Source: Phallusia mammillata
Lineage: Eukaryota
Reading direction: 5' to 3'
DNA: 64,000 bases
Assembly: GCA_965637545.1 (NCBI GenBank)
Contig: OZ281501.1
Span: forward strand, 15,128,001 to 15,192,000
A program made the position numbers. This document shows, piece by piece, positions 3,001 through 64,000 of this stretch. The stretch's first letter is position 1. Each line of letters opens with the position of its first letter.

Positions 3001-6000
3001 CGTGTTCAGGTGACCCGATGTAGTCAGTATGTTAGAGAAAAGTTTCGGGAAAGACAGGAACAATTTTTAAGCATAAAGACGTAACATTTTGGTTGTTGTG
3101 TACATGTAGATTTAGTTCGAACGATTTAGTTTAGTTGCTGTCAAGGAGATTTACTTCGAACACAGAAAGTCCCGGGTTTAAATATATTTAGTAAGTCAAT
3201 GTGCAGTTTACAGTTATAGAGCAGGTTCCATGGTCGGACTTTTCCCTCATACTTATAACAAATCGGATAATGTATTCAAAAAAAGGGTCTTTATGGCTTG
3301 AAAGGTTGTAAAACTGTGTGGTCTATGTGCTTGTTGCAGCGGCCTGGTATACGATCAATAGGTTTTTAATGTGCCCCATACGCCAGGCATGTCAGACATT
3401 TAAAGTTTTGGGTCTTTAATGCCTTTGTTGCATCAAGTAACATTATTGTACGTCTAATGTATAGTGTATGTTTCTAGTGTGAAACTAACTTTTCTAGAGA
3501 TTTTCTAAGTCACAGCATTATGCAGTCGCTTTTGGTGTATTGAAGCTACAAAAGTAAATAAACAAAACATACTGCAGTATTCATACAGTACCAAATACTG
3601 TATCACGCTATAACGACGCCATAACGCAGTGATAACCAATAACAAAACAACTTAGCAGAAGTATGTAATCATTTCACTAACGACAGTTAAACATTGTGTC
3701 TGTGCCAATGAACCAACACAAAAGGATCATTGTTTTTCCGTATTTGGTCTGTCATTCGCATTGCGTACAAATTAAGTTTGGATAGTCGAAGCAGTTTCCG
3801 TTCAGTTGGGGTATTTGCAGCATTTCCAATTCCTACATCAGTTCACATCCACCCTCCGATGACCTTTTTCCGGCAGACAATTGTGACATCACTCAAGGCA
3901 TTATTGGCGCAGAGTAGGAAGCACTGTGACGTTGCAAGTGCTTGAGGAAGCCAGAGCTTTGCGTTTGCGCTGTTGGCACGTTAATTATTTAACTGCGGTC
4001 ACGTGATTATGAATGGTCATGCTACAGTGATTTGACCTGTAACAAGCAAGTTTGCAGAGAGATCAGCCAATCTGAGACATGATTGCTAAAAGCTGCAGGA
4101 AAGCGACGTTCTTGTCACATTGTAGGTAGATTTTTTGTACACTTAGATAGTAGGTACATTTGCTGTAGCCGAAATGCATGTGAGTTGAGGGACTTCGTGT
4201 TAACATTAAGAATTTTGAGTACAAAACATTAATTTGATTTTGTTTATGTACTTAATCGTCCCGTAAGGCTTTGACCAAGTTGAAACGGATTAAAACATAT
4301 TCTTAGTGTTTTTAAAGAAAGCCAAAGAGTACAGCTTGACAGTGAACTTGAATTGTAATTCGTATTGGGCTTTTCACGTACAGGTCCAGGCTTAAGTAAT
4401 GGGGAGCAATCGGGCCTGACTATGCTCCAGCCTTATGTGTCGTAATCTCAACTTGATTAATCTAAGTTTCGGACATAATTCGGGCTTTATTTCAACAAAA
4501 ATTTCGAGTTTAGTCCGGCGTTTGGACTTTTCCATGTCCTGTCAAATGCTTACTCAGTTAACCTGATTGTCAACAATACACGTCGAAACTATTTTTAACT
4601 TGACCGGCTATTTTTGTGGACGAATTGGTGGTGTATGTTGGCGCATTTACAAACAAAGAGTAAGCCGTGGGAATGAAATACACAGAAGCTTTGGTTAGAA
4701 AATTTGTTTGATGCAAACAAAAGGGAATTTTCCTAAGCAGAATATATTAGCACTCTGAAAGCAGGTCAAGCACTTATCTGATCAAACAGTTTAAGCGCTA
4801 TAACATCTCAATTTACTTATTTGTTTACAAATTACTAGTCTTGTTGTGTAAGAAAATAACTTAAAATGTCGGGTTGGTCTTGTACCGGCAAACGGTGGCT
4901 GCTCTCTTGCGCTGGTTGTGTGCACTCAAACGCACTGAATCGTGACGAACGTAATGTGAATAACGTCATCAACATAAACAACAATCAGGAAAAGCAAACC
5001 CCTTTGATTGTCCCAAAGTTCGTCGAAGAGAAGAAATTGCCTAACGAGGAATTGTTGATTATACCTGATATCGCTGAGGGTGAGAATGCACGTTAGAAGA
5101 TTTAAAACGTAACTCAAAGCCTCTTTTAGAATGTTGTATTTTGACTTTTTTTGTTTGGGTGTGCTAGTTAGCAAGCAGGAATGTTTTTTTGTGAAATACC
5201 CAAGTTGTGCATTCATGAGTGAATTTTTCATCAAATACATCTAAAAGCAATCAGTCACATATGACTGTCACATTTGTTGTACGCACAAAACATCAACAAA
5301 TGCAACAGTCAAACACGGTTCCAACCCAGCAGCGGTCCCTCTAAACCAGCCACCACTTTCCCTTCTAATGACGCGTAACGTTGCGACGCCTTGTGTTGAC
5401 AAACTGTGTGACAAACCCTACTTGACGATATGATGTCTTACAAGGGTCTGATTTCACGGCCCTACTCACAGTAGCTGTTGCACCTACCCAAACAACTTAC
5501 TCATTTTTAGAGTTTTTTTTACAAAACCAAATCACTGTTTAAGATCGTTTGTCATACATACGTTGTGTTTGCTCATGTTTGATCACCTACACTGTTTTTT
5601 CAACACGTTTCACTTTGGTGTAAGCACATTACGCCATCGAGCTTGTTCAAATGACGTCATCTTCAATATTACGTCATCGAAGCAGTCTTTTACGCGGACG
5701 ATATTTTGCCATACTTTATTATCTCAAAGTCTGCCTGATTTTACGGAAACGTTATTATGACGTCATGAAACAAAACGTCATCAGTTCAGTGTCTAAACTA
5801 AGTTGTTAAATTTAAAAAATTGAGTTTTGAAGAGATTTAAGGCAATTGGTAAACGTACAGCTGCAGTAGGCTTGTCGAATATGCATTATGACTTCAAATT
5901 TTCGTCTAAACAGATCCACCAATCATCAACGGCGTAAAATCACGTGTTCTTACAACCAGCAAATCGATCCGCAACTCTGCACCAGGAACACCCATTACCC

Positions 6001-63000: not shown

Positions 63001-64000
63001 AATGTGACAGTTATAAACGTGAAAAGTGTACTTGTGGCGTCATGAAACATACAGAAAGTTTGCCGGAAAACGAAACTGGTTACGGTCAAACCGTGGAGCT
63101 CCAGAGGATGTCACATACTTTCGACTATACGTAATCTTTAAAAAACATTCTCTTTGGTTGGGTAGATAGTAGTGAGAACTATGTGGGATATTTAACATAA
63201 TGTTTACCTTTGATTCCATGCAGATTTAACGTTAAATCTCCAAATCATTTACACTAAATTAAAAACCACAAAAATGTCACTGCAATTTAAACGTCCTTCG
63301 AAGGAAAGTTGAATCCAAGATGGCTACTAAAATGGACACTATTATTTCTGCCCTCGACCGTGACGAACTCGATCACGTGATGGCGGTGCTCAACCGTGAC
63401 CGAGGCTTGCGTGACCGGGACCAGGAGAGGTTGGTTCGACTCAGAATGGACCTGGTCCGGGAAAAACGCAATGGGGCTTTAGTCGTGGGGCAGAATTATC
63501 ACCGCGACCCAAATTCTCGCTGCGCGCGTTGCCTGGGTGCTTTGGACCTATACGACCGGTGGGATAAACAAAAGGCGAGATGTTTTCTATGCAAACATCT
63601 CATCTGCAAAAAGTGTCGTGTTACAAAATGGAGGACGGAGTGGGAAGAGACGAGCGCCTTGATGCACGAAAAGGAGAATAAAAGAGAAATAGTTACGTCG
63701 AGTGCTCCTGTTTCTCCTGCAAGGAGCTTGGATAGACCGATCATAAAATCGGTTGCGGACGCCATGACTCAAACTGAAGTTAGCTGTGGCCCACTACAGA
63801 CGAACTGCCCTCTATGTGGTGAAATAAGAGAGGCTACCCCAGAAAAAAGCAAGCGGAAATCTACTACTGGTAGAAGGTCAATAGAAAAGTCTACGAAGAA
63901 AAAGAAAAAATCGAGCAGGTCAAAACAAAACGATAAGACGAACGTTGCTGTATCTCAAAGCAGAAGGAGTAAAACGCCGAAGGAAAATGCCAATTCGCTT

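What the first reader, a model, noticed from the sequence alone, without database searches (positions are those of the whole stretch)
4866..64000. Locus-level hypothesis: one MLCK gene with swappable N-terminal address tags
Seen: several same-strand candidate starts, most phase-compatible with the next exon: Cys-rich leader (4866), Met at the front of Ig1 (15341) and Ig2 (28116) behind possible non-coding first exons, a 28-aa leader (33197), a hydrophobic/polybasic leader (51791) and a Rab-binding domain (63320, link unknown). Inference: a nested series of isoforms targeting the same myosin-regulating module to different membranes or vesicles. Each component is only a candidate; GT donors occur often by chance in AT-rich DNA.
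Basis: inference. Interest (0 to 1): 0.65.

Follow-up and report, generated by a model that had tools for sequence, protein, structure and literature searches.

The report
Sea-squirt MLCK gene, alternative protein starts
The window holds the first two-thirds of the myosin light chain kinase gene of the sea squirt Phallusia mammillata, and three of the six proposed alternative protein starts match starts already annotated in this or other sea squirts, which is the expected behaviour of this gene family rather than a new kind of system.

Summary
All six ATGs exist at the stated coordinates. The + strand carries one 34-exon, fully in-phase reading frame from 4866 to 55291. 33 of 34 exon peptides are exact substrings of the deposited Phallusia mammillata MLCK (P0006, CAB3264137.1, 2630 aa) and one differs by one residue. 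The window encodes residues 1-1941: leader, 13 Ig domains and the DFRxxL actin-binding repeats. Ig14, Fn3, kinase and the last Ig lie outside it.

- **4866:** the deposited N-terminus, conserved in Ciona X1 and Clavelina X2.
- **28116:** the homologous Met starts Ciona X2 and Clavelina X3.
- **33197:** its motif WPxEPVFWTxP starts Ciona X3 and Clavelina X4, joined to the second half of Ig2.
- **15341:** a conserved Met, but 0 of 8 RefSeq isoforms start there.
- **51791:**
- **63320:** the Rab-binding ORF looks like a separate gene; 8 of 8 relatives checked have no kinase.

The nested isoform series is supported by homology. Membrane or vesicle targeting is untested. Multi-promoter MLCK loci are already known.

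The parts
4866..5079 (+). First coding exon of the long isoform: ATG 4866 and the Cys-rich leader (MSGWSCTGKRWLLSCAGCV...); donor at 5080, phase 1
   Evidence: Identical to P0006 residues 1-71. The first ~16 residues are conserved in Ciona X1 and Clavelina X2. Codon-usage score 0.24 bits/codon, above all 120 null ORFs. Donor score 7.5.
5914..6022 (+). Second coding exon (Ser/Thr/Pro-rich linker), phase 1 in, phase 2 out
   Evidence: Exact substring of P0006 residues 73-107. Boundaries read. Codon score 0.44.
14773..14915 (+). Third coding exon (Ser/Thr-rich linker), joins the Ig1 exon in phase 1
   Evidence: P0006 residues 109-155. Donor 14916 ctg|GTAAGA scores 8.9. Codon score 0.44.
15321..15472 (+). 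Ig1 first-half exon. It contains Met 15341, 20 nt after the acceptor.
   Evidence: Pfam I-set. P0006 residues 157-206. The Met is conserved at the same place in Ciona X1 and Clavelina X1, but 0 of 8 RefSeq isoforms start there.
26954..27122 (+). Ig1 second-half exon, after an 11,481-nt intron
   Evidence: Pfam I-set.
28096..28241 (+). Ig2 first-half exon. It contains Met 28116, 20 nt after the acceptor, in the context caaATGg.
   Evidence: The homologous Met is residue 1 of Ciona X2 (P0005), Clavelina X3 (P0007) and the unnamed transcript-like ORFs P0024/P0027. The linker KES..Q-M of the long isoforms fixes the acceptor at 28096.
33197..33280 (+). Alternative first coding exon inside the 10,062-nt intron that splits Ig2. 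It encodes a 28-aa leader ending GWPLEPVFWTSPVLR; donor 33281, phase 0, fits acceptor 38304.
   Evidence: Homologous leaders start Ciona X3 (P0013) and Clavelina X4 (P0016), both joined to DGKVV..., the second half of Ig2. Donor score 11.1. Codon score 0.31, above all 120 null ORFs.
38304..38469 (+). Ig2 second-half exon, shared by all isoforms
   Evidence: Pfam I-set.
39701..50794 (+). 21 exons encoding linkers and Ig3-Ig12, including the 66-nt phase 1-1 exon 48531-48596. The last of them carries the first DFRxxL motif.
   Evidence: In-phase AG/GT chain. Pfam I-set. Exact match to P0006 except one I/V difference in exon 49905-50031.
51791..51958 (+). Candidate alternative first exon in the 1,310-nt intron just before DFRxxL exon 52105. 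It is a Cys-rich, hydrophobic, polybasic ORF (…CDGEERWIFSCVACCYVVFKLLKRRKERK…). Unproven.
   Evidence: For: it is the best non-self match in the window to the conserved leader block GKRWLLSCAGCV (score 38, reached by 1 of 300 shuffles); tblastn E 0.026, 0.035 and 0.18; phase-0 donor 51959 scores 4.7. Against: the 51923 donor scores -2.4; codon score 0.05, with 4 of 120 null ORFs as high; no homologue; 0 of 8 RefSeq isoforms start in this region.
52105..53984 (+). Four exons carrying the remaining DFRxxL actin-binding repeats (52105-52190, 52557-52687, 53135-53346, 53694-53984)
   Evidence: Exon peptides. The regex D[FV]R..[LIA] finds five hits in P0006, at 1598, 1621, 1682, 1712 and 1770: four DFRxxL and the variant DFRDEA(L). 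They are spaced 23, 61, 30 and 58 residues apart. A second variant, KDFRSETI in exon 53135-53346, is not caught by the regex.
54547..55291 (+). Two exons of Ig13 (54547-54670, 55169-55291), the last MLCK exons in the window. Donor 55292 agg|GTGAGT, phase 1. Reading through gives GESA and then a stop at 55303-55305.
   Evidence: P0006 residues 1942 onward are not in the window.
63320..64000 (+). Start of a separate Rab-effector-like gene (FYVE_2 / Slac2-type Rab-binding domain). The ORF is open to the end of the window and lies inside the MLCK intron that follows 55291.
   Evidence: Pfam PF02318, E 5.1e-12. Best solved relative is melanophilin 2zet_C, E 1.8e-7. Codon score 0.29. 8 of 8 top relatives are 737-1150 aa proteins with an N-terminal FYVE_2 and no kinase, Ig or C2 domain.

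Best explanation
The window is the 5' two-thirds of the Phallusia mammillata orthologue of MYLK (smooth-muscle/non-muscle myosin light chain kinase).

Shown:
- 34 exons from 4866 to 55291 form one reading frame. It encodes a Cys-rich leader, a Ser/Thr-rich linker, 13 I-set Ig domains and a cluster of DFRxxL actin-binding repeats.
- The rest of the deposited protein (Ig14, Fn3, kinase, last Ig) lies downstream of the window.

Supported by homology with annotated isoforms of two other ascidian genera: the gene has at least three alternative protein starts.
1. ATG 4866 gives the Cys-rich leader plus Ig1.
2. ATG 28116 gives a protein that begins at Ig2.
3. ATG 33197 lies on its own first exon inside the 10-kb intron that splits Ig2. 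It gives a 28-aa WPxEPVFWTxP leader fused to the second half of Ig2.

Inferred:
- These starts arise from separate transcription starts in the giant 5' introns.
- For the two Mets that sit 20 nt behind an acceptor, the 5' end could be made by spliced-leader trans-splicing onto that acceptor. This is common in ascidians and would make those Mets the first AUG.
- All three forms share Ig3-Ig13 and the actin-binding repeats, so the variable heads would change what the common body is attached to.
- The Cys-rich head looks like an S-acylation (palmitoylation) membrane anchor.
- 15341 and 51791 remain candidates.
- The Rab-binding ORF at 63320 is a separate gene nested in, or following, the MLCK transcription unit.
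For: Exon chain:
- 30 exons with AG/GT boundaries are all in phase. Four further exons were added from the P0006 mapping.
- 33 of 34 exon peptides are exact, colinear substrings of P0006 and one differs by a single residue.
- P0006 is named 'myosin light chain kinase, smooth muscle [Phallusia mammillata]', CAB3264137.1 / A0A6F9DL23.
- Pfam on P0006 finds 15 I-set stretches, fn3 at 2062-2150 and Pkinase at 2196-2451 (E 5.6e-72).

N-termini:
- Ciona X1 and Clavelina X2 start with MSG/K..GKRWLL(S/A)C.
- Ciona X2, Clavelina X3 and the unnamed P0024/P0027 start at the Ig2-front Met.
- Ciona X3 and Clavelina X4 start with ..WP(L/Y)(D/E)PVFWT(S/A)P.. joined to DGKVV.

Codon usage: the 4866 leader, exons 5914 and 14773 and the 33197 leader all score above every one of 120 null intronic ATG-ORFs. 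Donor 33281 is stronger than all 30 model donors, and donor 5080 is within their range.

Literature (passages read with the find mode):
- The vertebrate MLCK locus makes long, short and telokin products, and DXRXXL motifs span the long/short junction (PMC2185581).
- Internal promoters operate in MYLK (PMC9343278).
- Ascidian MYLK corresponds to vertebrate MYLK (PMC12198301).
- About half of Ciona genes are SL trans-spliced, and 115 of 2581 genes had alternative promoters (PMC4691747).
Against: - No transcript, TSS or read data for Phallusia could be consulted. The protein collection holds only the long Phallusia form (its cluster has 1 member).
- The Ciona and Clavelina isoforms are RefSeq XP_ computational models, and I could not see their evidence.
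- The 33197 leader is fused to half an Ig domain, which is structurally odd. An AlphaFold2 model of the Ciona X3 head was of low confidence (mean pLDDT 53.8).
- The sequence-only criterion is met by 97 other ATGs, and strong donor-like sites are as common on the - strand.
- No lipidation, localisation or promoter evidence exists. CArG boxes are not enriched (7 found, 4.8 expected) and none lies in the intron before the DFRxxL exons.
- The kinase is not in the window.
Confidence: 0.8

Rival explanations
1. A single promoter: only the 4866 start is real in Phallusia. The other ATGs are internal Mets or chance intronic ORFs, and the shorter Ciona and Clavelina isoforms are artefacts of automated annotation.
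For: Donor-like sites are equally common on the - strand. Only the long Phallusia protein is in the collection. The XP_ models are predictions.
Against: The 33197 leader is conserved in three genera, and in all three it begins with Met and ends at the same junction with DGKVV. Its codon usage exceeds all 120 null ORFs and its donor is the strongest in the gene. The Ig2-front Met is conserved in four species amid a divergent linker, and it starts transcript-like ORFs from unnamed sources as well.
Confidence: 0.12
2. A short, membrane-anchored isoform: the 51791 ORF is a real alternative first exon. It would encode a second, more hydrophobic copy of the Cys-rich tag and splice in phase 0 to DFRxxL exon 52105. 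This would be the ascidian counterpart of the vertebrate short MLCK, which starts inside the DXRXXL cluster.
For: - Its block EERWIFSCVACC is the best non-self match in the window to the conserved leader block, reached by 1 of 300 shuffles.
- The Ciona and Clavelina leaders also hit it (E 0.035 and 0.18).
- The similarity is at protein level: 24 of 45 bases are identical, and Arg, Ser and Cys use different codons.
- It lies on the + strand behind an ATG in a caaaATG context, in an intron of 1,310 nt where most introns are 155-562 nt.
- A phase-0 donor lies at 51959 with score 4.7.
- The position matches the vertebrate long/short junction (PMC2185581, passages).
Against: - Donor 51959 is at the bottom of the real range.
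- Codon score is 0.05 for codons 1-44 and -0.18 for the whole ORF.
- No homologue was found among proteins of 140-2000 aa: 6 candidates shared words and none scored.
- 0 of 8 RefSeq isoforms in two species start in this region.
- The motif was noticed after the fact.
Confidence: 0.3
3. The Rab-binding ORF at 63320 is an alternative first exon of MLCK that is spliced to the downstream Ig14-Fn3-kinase exons.
For: It is on the same strand. It lies inside the intron of more than 8.7 kb that follows 55291, if the deposited long transcript is right.
Against: - The ORF stays open for at least 227 codons with coding-like codon usage (0.29), well past the domain.
- All 8 of 8 top relatives examined are 737-1150 aa proteins with an N-terminal FYVE_2 domain and no kinase, Ig or Fn3.
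- One relative sits on a 6.3-kb transcript-like contig.
- None of the 9 named ascidian MLCK proteins seen carries such a domain.
Confidence: 0.04
4. The 33197 exon is not an address tag but the relic of an Ig first-half exon. Its conserved block would supply the B-C loop and strand C (G-x-P-x-x-P-x-x-W) to a shortened Ig2, so the isoform is simply an N-terminally truncated protein with a partial first domain.
For: Among the 34 exon peptides, the leader's best match is SGWPLEPVFWTS to SGSPLPSVKWTA, at the B-C/strand-C position of Ig7. The next two best matches are also Ig first-half exons. In the low-confidence AF2 model, residues 14-22 form a strand next to 25-33.
Against: The match is weak: 27 of 500 shuffles reach it. 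The model's confidence is too low to use (mean pLDDT 53.8, pTM 0.27). A domain lacking strands A-B may not fold.
Confidence: 0.3

Closest known systems
Vertebrate MYLK locus (long/non-muscle MLCK, short/smooth-muscle MLCK, telokin)
   Same: - One gene with nested products that share a common C-terminal body and differ at the N-terminus through internal promoters (PMC2185581 and PMC9343278, passages).
- An N-terminal extension of tandem Ig domains.
- DFRxxL/DXRXXL actin-binding repeats with about 29-residue spacing.
- Ig-Fn3-kinase-Ig at the C-terminus of the deposited protein.
- Ascidian MYLK is reported as the counterpart of vertebrate MYLK (PMC12198301, passage).
   Different: - The window encodes 13 Ig domains before Ig14. 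As I recall, not from a call, the vertebrate long extension has six.
- The documented ascidian starts all lie at the far 5' end (leader, Ig2 front, mid-Ig2), not at the DFRxxL cluster.
- A short form starting at the repeats is only a candidate here (51791).
- The Cys-rich leader and the WPxEPVFWTxP leader have no vertebrate counterpart that I know of (recalled, not tested).
- Any telokin promoter would lie outside the window.
RefSeq isoform sets of Ciona intestinalis (X1-X3) and Clavelina lepadiformis (X1-X5) MLCK
   Same: The same three kinds of N-terminus as window sites 4866, 28116 and 33197, with the same junctions.
   Different: - Clavelina X1 starts with an extra Ig domain that has no counterpart in the window (best hits about 30% identity to paralogous Ig exons).
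- Clavelina X5 starts at a Met inside Ig2.
- Neither species lists a start at the Ig1 front or in the repeat region.
- These are computational models.
Drosophila Stretchin-Mlck
   Same: A large Ig-rich MLCK-family gene with several predicted transcripts, including the kinase-less Ig protein stretchin-klp (PMC7391215, passages citing Champagne 2000 and Patel & Saide 2005). This parallels the kinase-less ascidian ORFs that end after Ig13.
   Different: Orthology was not tested here. The fly gene has no DFRxxL cluster that I checked. The kinase-less form is not shown for Phallusia.
Melanophilin / Slac2-type Rab27 effectors (for the ORF at 63320)
   Same: An N-terminal FYVE_2 Rab-binding domain (Pfam E 5.1e-12). 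The best solved relative is melanophilin in 2zet (E 1.8e-7). The relatives have no C2 domains.
   Different: Pfam covers only profile positions 2-92 of 118. No Rab_eff_C or other domain was found in the 8 relatives. Rab binding is untested. The best relative is only 50% identical and unnamed.

Membership tests
MYLK (smooth-muscle/non-muscle myosin light chain kinase) | Ser/Thr protein kinase domain | tested here: met
   The domain is not in the window. It is met for the deposited protein whose residues 1-1941 the window encodes: Pkinase at 2196-2451, E 5.6e-72. The calmodulin-binding segment was not tested.
MYLK (smooth-muscle/non-muscle myosin light chain kinase) | Fn3 before the kinase and a C-terminal (telokin-type) Ig after it | tested here: met
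   P0006 has fn3 at 2062-2150 and I-set at 2535-2625. Both lie outside the window.
MYLK (smooth-muscle/non-muscle myosin light chain kinase) | DFRxxL actin-binding repeats upstream of the kinase | tested here: met
   Four DFRxxL motifs and two variants in exons 50656-53984, spaced 23, 61, 30 and 58 residues apart. PMC2185581 gives 28-29 residues for vertebrates.
MYLK (smooth-muscle/non-muscle myosin light chain kinase) | N-terminal extension of tandem I-set Ig domains | tested here: met
   13 Ig domains in the window (Pfam I-set on the exons). P0006 has 15 I-set stretches.
MYLK (smooth-muscle/non-muscle myosin light chain kinase) | Orthology to vertebrate MYLK rather than MYLK2-4, SPEG or obscurin | not tested
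   I built no tree. PMC12198301 (passage) reports that Ci-MYLK corresponds to vertebrate MYLK. The sources' own names say 'smooth muscle'.
Multi-promoter MLCK-type locus (nested N-terminal isoforms) | Independent transcription starts giving proteins with different N-termini and a shared body | not testable with these tools
   No transcript or TSS data were available. The evidence is indirect: 3 kinds of start shared with 8 RefSeq isoforms of two genera and with the Phallusia deposit.
Multi-promoter MLCK-type locus (nested N-terminal isoforms) | A short isoform that starts at the DFRxxL cluster | tested here: inconclusive
   The 51791 ORF has a motif match (1 of 300 shuffles) and a passable donor at 51959. 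Against it are the poor donor at 51923, a borderline codon score, no homologue and no annotated counterpart.
Slp/rabphilin-type Rab effectors | Rab-binding FYVE_2 domain followed by tandem C2 domains | tested here: not met
   FYVE_2 is present, but 0 of 8 relatives carry C2 domains. The window ORF is cut by the window end.
Slac2 (melanophilin/MyRIP)-type Rab effectors | N-terminal Rab-binding domain without C2 domains, plus myosin- and actin-binding regions | tested here: inconclusive
   The Rab-binding domain resembles melanophilin, and the relatives have the domain alone. No Rab_eff_C match was found, and myosin binding cannot be tested.
S-acylated (palmitoylated) N-terminal membrane anchors | Cysteines near the N-terminus flanked by basic and hydrophobic residues, and acylated in vivo | not testable with these tools
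   The sequence pattern is present: 3 Cys in the 4866 leader, 6 Cys plus KRRKERK in the 51791 ORF, and maximum 11-residue hydropathy of 1.14 and 2.46. Acylation cannot be shown by sequence.

The most novel reading that the evidence does not exclude
Ascidian MLCK carries a modular, duplicated Cys-rich lipid-anchor tag: C-x-G-x-RW-(L/I)(L/F)-SC-x-x-C. One copy heads the long isoform (4866). A second, more hydrophobic and polybasic copy (51791) heads a short isoform that begins at the actin-binding repeats. If so, a myosin light chain kinase would be tethered directly to membranes in two size classes, alongside a third head (WPxEPVFWTxP) that replaces half of an Ig domain. I know of no such lipid-anchored MLCK in vertebrates. 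The listing of one literature search (10 of 476 papers listed) showed none.
Probability: 0.2. Interest if true: 0.55.

Novelty: new member of a known kind. Interest (0 to 1): 0.3.

Why it matters
Nested isoforms from internal promoters are a textbook feature of the vertebrate MYLK locus. This locus suggests that the invertebrate chordate counterpart uses the same strategy, but with different heads and at different places.

For Phallusia, a developmental model, it gives two or three testable isoform starts that are absent from the deposited protein set. It also gives a short conserved Cys motif whose role in membrane tethering of actomyosin regulation could be tested with simple GFP fusions.

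It also illustrates a limit of sequence-only reading. The criterion of an ATG, an open frame and a phase-compatible GT is met about a hundred times in this gene by chance. Cross-species comparison, not splice arithmetic, picked out the real exons.

Tried and rejected
- **Joined step.** The spliced model was searched exon by exon. The deposited protein P0006 served as the joined reference, checked exon by exon.
- **AlphaFold2 of the Ciona X3 head** (residues 1-80, aligned with Clavelina X4): mean pLDDT 53.8, pTM 0.27. Too weak to say whether the leader completes the half Ig domain.
- **ESM Atlas.** For the 51791 ORF the best score was 0.76, with no family. For the Rab-binding ORF it gave only sub-0.9 leads: rabphilin and RIM zinc-finger clusters.
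- **Homologue search with the 51791 ORF** among proteins of 140-2000 aa: 6 candidates shared words and none scored. This is weak evidence of absence. Proteins shorter than 140 aa were not searched.
- **CArG boxes:** 7 found against 4.8 ± 2.3 expected; 22 of 100 shuffles reach 7; none lies in 50795-52104.
- **AATAAA:** 140 found against 136 expected, so it says nothing about a poly(A) site after 55291.
- **Second copy of the 33197 motif:** the best other match scores 30, reached by 21 of 200 shuffles.
- **Clavelina X1's extra N-terminal Ig:** no counterpart in the window.
- **Ten largest other ORFs,** mostly in the big introns and on either strand: no Pfam family.
- **Non-coding RNA:** Rfam at gathering thresholds found 0 matches and ARAGORN found 0 tRNAs.
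- **Early judgements that were wrong.** I first dismissed the 66-nt exon 48531-48596 and took 28126 as the Ig2 acceptor. P0006 and the orthologue linkers corrected both. I also first argued that a leader fused to half an Ig domain was implausible; conservation overruled that.
- **Timeout.** The same computation was redone, vectorised.
- **Not checked.** Supplementary tables of PMC4691747 (Ciona TSS clusters and alternative promoters) may list the Ciona Mylk gene, but supplements are closed.

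
Full report
**What is in the window.** Pfam on stop-to-stop frames shows a long + strand series of half and whole I-set Ig exons from 15299 to 55302. It also shows a FYVE_2 (Rab-effector zinc finger) match in the ORF at 63320. No recognisable coding exon lies between 55305 and 63260.

**Identity of the gene.**
- A search with one DFRxxL exon found 'Myosin light chain kinase, smooth muscle' of Ciona savignyi at 68% identity.
- A second search used residues 1-150 of the hit P0003 so as to reach long proteins. It found named ascidian MLCKs, including P0006 from Phallusia mammillata (2630 aa, CAB3264137.1 / A0A6F9DL23).
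- tblastn of P0006 against the window gave 97-100% identity, colinear from 4866 to 55290.
- I had built a 30-exon model from frames, AG/GT sites and phases alone, and all junctions were in phase.
- Adding the three 5' exons and one 66-nt exon shown by P0006 gives 34 exons. 33 of the 34 exon peptides are exact substrings of P0006 in order, and the other differs by one residue.

So the window is the Phallusia MLCK locus, or a near-identical haplotype. It is not human. I searched the spliced model exon by exon and left the joined step out; the deposited protein served as the joined reference.

**Architecture.** The window encodes P0006 residues 1-1941: leader, Ser/Thr-rich linker, 13 Ig domains, and a cluster of four DFRxxL motifs plus two variants spaced 23, 61, 30 and 58 residues apart. 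This echoes the 28-29-residue spacing reported for vertebrate MLCK (PMC2185581, passages). P0006 continues with a further Ig, fn3 (2062-2150), Pkinase (2196-2451, E 5.6e-72) and a last Ig. Residues 1942 onward find nothing in the window. The 'MLCK' label is therefore right, but the kinase is not in the window. The intron after 55291 is longer than 8.7 kb.

- Outside the 34 exons, 97 distinct ATGs have at least 20 open codons and a phase-compatible GT.
- 16 do so with a donor in the range of real donors, and 5 with a score of 7 or more.
- Donor-like sites that are not model donors are about as common on the + strand as on the - strand: 60 against 66 at score 7 or more, and 3 against 8 at score 10 or more.

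A codon-usage log-odds score does discriminate. It was trained on the 30 exons against intronic triplets.

| Segment | Score (bits/codon) | Null ATG-ORFs scoring as high |
|---|---|---|
| 4866 leader | 0.24 | 0 of 120 |
| Exons 5914 and 14773 | 0.44 each | 0 of 120 |
| 66-nt exon 48531-48596 | 0.59 | 0 of 120 |
| 33197 leader | 0.31 | 0 of 120 |
| Rab-binding ORF | 0.29 | 0 of 120 |
| 51791-51922 | 0.05 | 4 of 120 |

**The candidates against annotated isoforms.** Cluster look-up and retrieval gave three RefSeq isoforms for Ciona intestinalis and five for Clavelina lepadiformis.

1. **4866.** It is residue 1 of the Phallusia deposit. Ciona X1 (MSGSRGKRWLLAC...) and Clavelina X2 (MSKWNCAGKRWLLSC...) share the first ~16 residues and then diverge. 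Donor 5080 is used, but it joins exon 5914-6022, then 14773-14915, and only then Ig1.
2. **28116.** Ciona X2 (MSTDRRPYFSQ), Clavelina X3 (MASDRPPKFTQ) and the unnamed transcript-like ORFs P0024/P0027 (MVSEQKSPGF) begin at the homologous Met. The long isoforms read AKES..Q-M there, which places the acceptor at 28096, 20 nt before the ATG.
3. **33197.** Ciona X3 (MINVAEGSWPLDPVFWTSPFLR|DGKVV) and Clavelina X4 (MCSESYRGWPYEPVFWTAPVYK|DGKVV) begin with the same motif as the window's MPKASLCNPEEYSGWPLEPVFWTSPVLR. They join the second half of Ig2 at the same point. The window's donor 33281 scores 11.1, above all 30 model donors.
4. **15341.** The Met is conserved in the three long isoforms amid a divergent linker, and it too lies 20 nt after its acceptor. 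None of the 8 RefSeq isoforms starts there.
5. **51791.** None of the 8 isoforms starts in the repeat region, and a search found no homologue. The donor at 51923 scores -2.4, below all 30 model donors. The evidence in its favour follows.
   - The ORF contains CDGEERWIFSCVACCY, the best non-self match in the six-frame translation to the conserved leader block GKRWLLSCAGCV. It scores 38, reached by 1 of 300 shuffled windows.
   - tblastn gives E 0.026, 0.035 and 0.18 with the Phallusia, Ciona and Clavelina leaders.
   - The likeness is at protein level: 24 of 45 bases are identical, and 3 of 7 identical residues use different codons.
   - A phase-0 donor at 51959 scores 4.7, at the bottom of the real range.
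   - The ORF sits in a 1,310-nt intron directly before the second DFRxxL exon. This is the position where the vertebrate short MLCK begins (PMC2185581, passages).

   I rate it about 0.3.
6. **63320.** The best solved relative is melanophilin (2zet_C, E 1.8e-7). A full HMMER scan found 23 relatives. The 8 best that I examined are 737-1150 aa with only an N-terminal FYVE_2 domain and no kinase, Ig, Fn3 or C2. This is a separate gene. If the deposited long transcript is right, it lies inside the MLCK intron on the same strand.

**How it most likely works.** Shown: there is one transcription unit with a common body (Ig3-Ig13 and the actin-binding repeats in the window; kinase beyond it). At least three kinds of N-terminus are shared across three ascidian genera.

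Inferred:
- The heads arise from separate transcription starts in the unusually long 5' introns (8,750, 11,481 and 10,062 nt, where most introns are 155-562 nt).
- The two Mets that lie 20 nt behind an acceptor, with no earlier ATG in the exon, would become the first AUG if a transcript begun in the upstream intron were SL trans-spliced at that acceptor.
- About half of Ciona genes are trans-spliced, and 115 of 2581 genes showed alternative promoters (PMC4691747, passages).
- The Cys-rich head, flanked by basic and hydrophobic residues, looks like an S-acylation anchor. This is inference from sequence only.
- The WPxEPVFWTxP head resembles the B-C loop and strand C of an Ig domain (SGWPLEPVFWTS against SGSPLPSVKWTA of Ig7; 27 of 500 shuffles reach that score). 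It may be a relic that caps a shortened Ig2 rather than an address tag. An AlphaFold2 model was too uncertain to decide.

- The kinase is outside the window.
- The Rab-binding domain is not linked.
- No Phallusia transcript evidence was available.
- The Ciona and Clavelina isoforms are computational models.
- Several ORFs from other ascidians lack the kinase and stop 2-14 codons after the Ig13 exon by reading into the following intron. These are P0003; the P0008/24/25/27 cluster; and Clavelina CAK8673797.1, P0019. The window would do the same (GESA, then a stop at 55303-55305). Some products of the locus may therefore not carry 'the same myosin-regulating module' at all, as with the kinase-less stretchin-klp of Drosophila Stretchin-Mlck (PMC7391215, passages).

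**Comparison with what is known, and novelty.** Nested isoforms from internal promoters define the vertebrate MYLK locus. It makes long, short and telokin products (PMC2185581) and has internal promoters (PMC9343278; the Yin et al. 2006 CArG-dependent promoter paper was seen only as a reference-list entry there). Ascidian MYLK is reported as its counterpart (PMC12198301, passage), and Ciona Mylk expression has been described (PMC7397655, passages). My searches listed no paper on ascidian MLCK isoforms. Within a library that lacks most subscription journals, the listing (10 of 476 papers shown) showed none on a lipid-anchored MLCK.

The long Phallusia isoform is already deposited, and the other two heads are already in RefSeq for other genera. 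For Phallusia they would be new annotations. Verdict: a new member of a known kind, with modest interest. The duplicated Cys-motif head before the actin-binding repeats is the one lead that could be new.

Noticed in passing
window 55292-55305 (and P0003, P0008/P0024/P0025/P0027, P0019): Reading through the donor after the Ig13 exon gives GESA and then a stop. ORFs of about 1600-1750 aa from three other ascidian sources lack the kinase and end 2-14 codons after the same exon. This suggests a conserved kinase-less isoform made by intron retention or an early poly(A) site.
   Followed up: partly
window 63320-64000: A Slac2/melanophilin-like Rab-binding gene starts on the same strand 8 kb after the last MLCK exon in the window. 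It would therefore lie inside the MLCK intron that leads to the kinase exons. Its relatives appear as single long ORFs of 737-1150 codons.
   Followed up: partly
window 15321-15341 and 28096-28116: The conserved Mets in front of Ig1 and Ig2 each lie exactly 20 nt after their exon's acceptor, with no earlier ATG in the exon. This is the layout expected if spliced-leader trans-splicing at these acceptors makes them first AUGs.
   Followed up: partly
window 48531-48596: A 66-nt exon (phase 1 in, phase 1 out; donor aac|GTAAGT) is included in the deposited protein. Skipping it would keep the frame, so it could be a cassette exon.
   Followed up: no
window 6023-14772, 15473-26953, 28242-38303: There are three giant introns (8.75, 11.5 and 10.1 kb) at the 5' end, where most introns are 155-562 nt. 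Two of them split an Ig domain in the middle. The ten largest other ORFs of the window, most of them in these introns, have no Pfam family.
   Followed up: partly
window 49905-50031: There is one residue difference (I in the window, V in P0006) in the Ig12 first-half exon. It is the only mismatch in 34 exon peptides and is presumably a polymorphism.
   Followed up: no
window 11426-11542: A perfect tandem repeat of a 39-bp unit (3.0 copies, 100% matches) lies inside the 8.75-kb intron.
   Followed up: no
P0017 (Clavelina X1) residues 1-150: One Clavelina isoform starts with an additional Ig domain upstream of the shared linker. No counterpart is present in the window, so a further 5' exon may lie upstream of the window or be absent in Phallusia.
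   Followed up: partly
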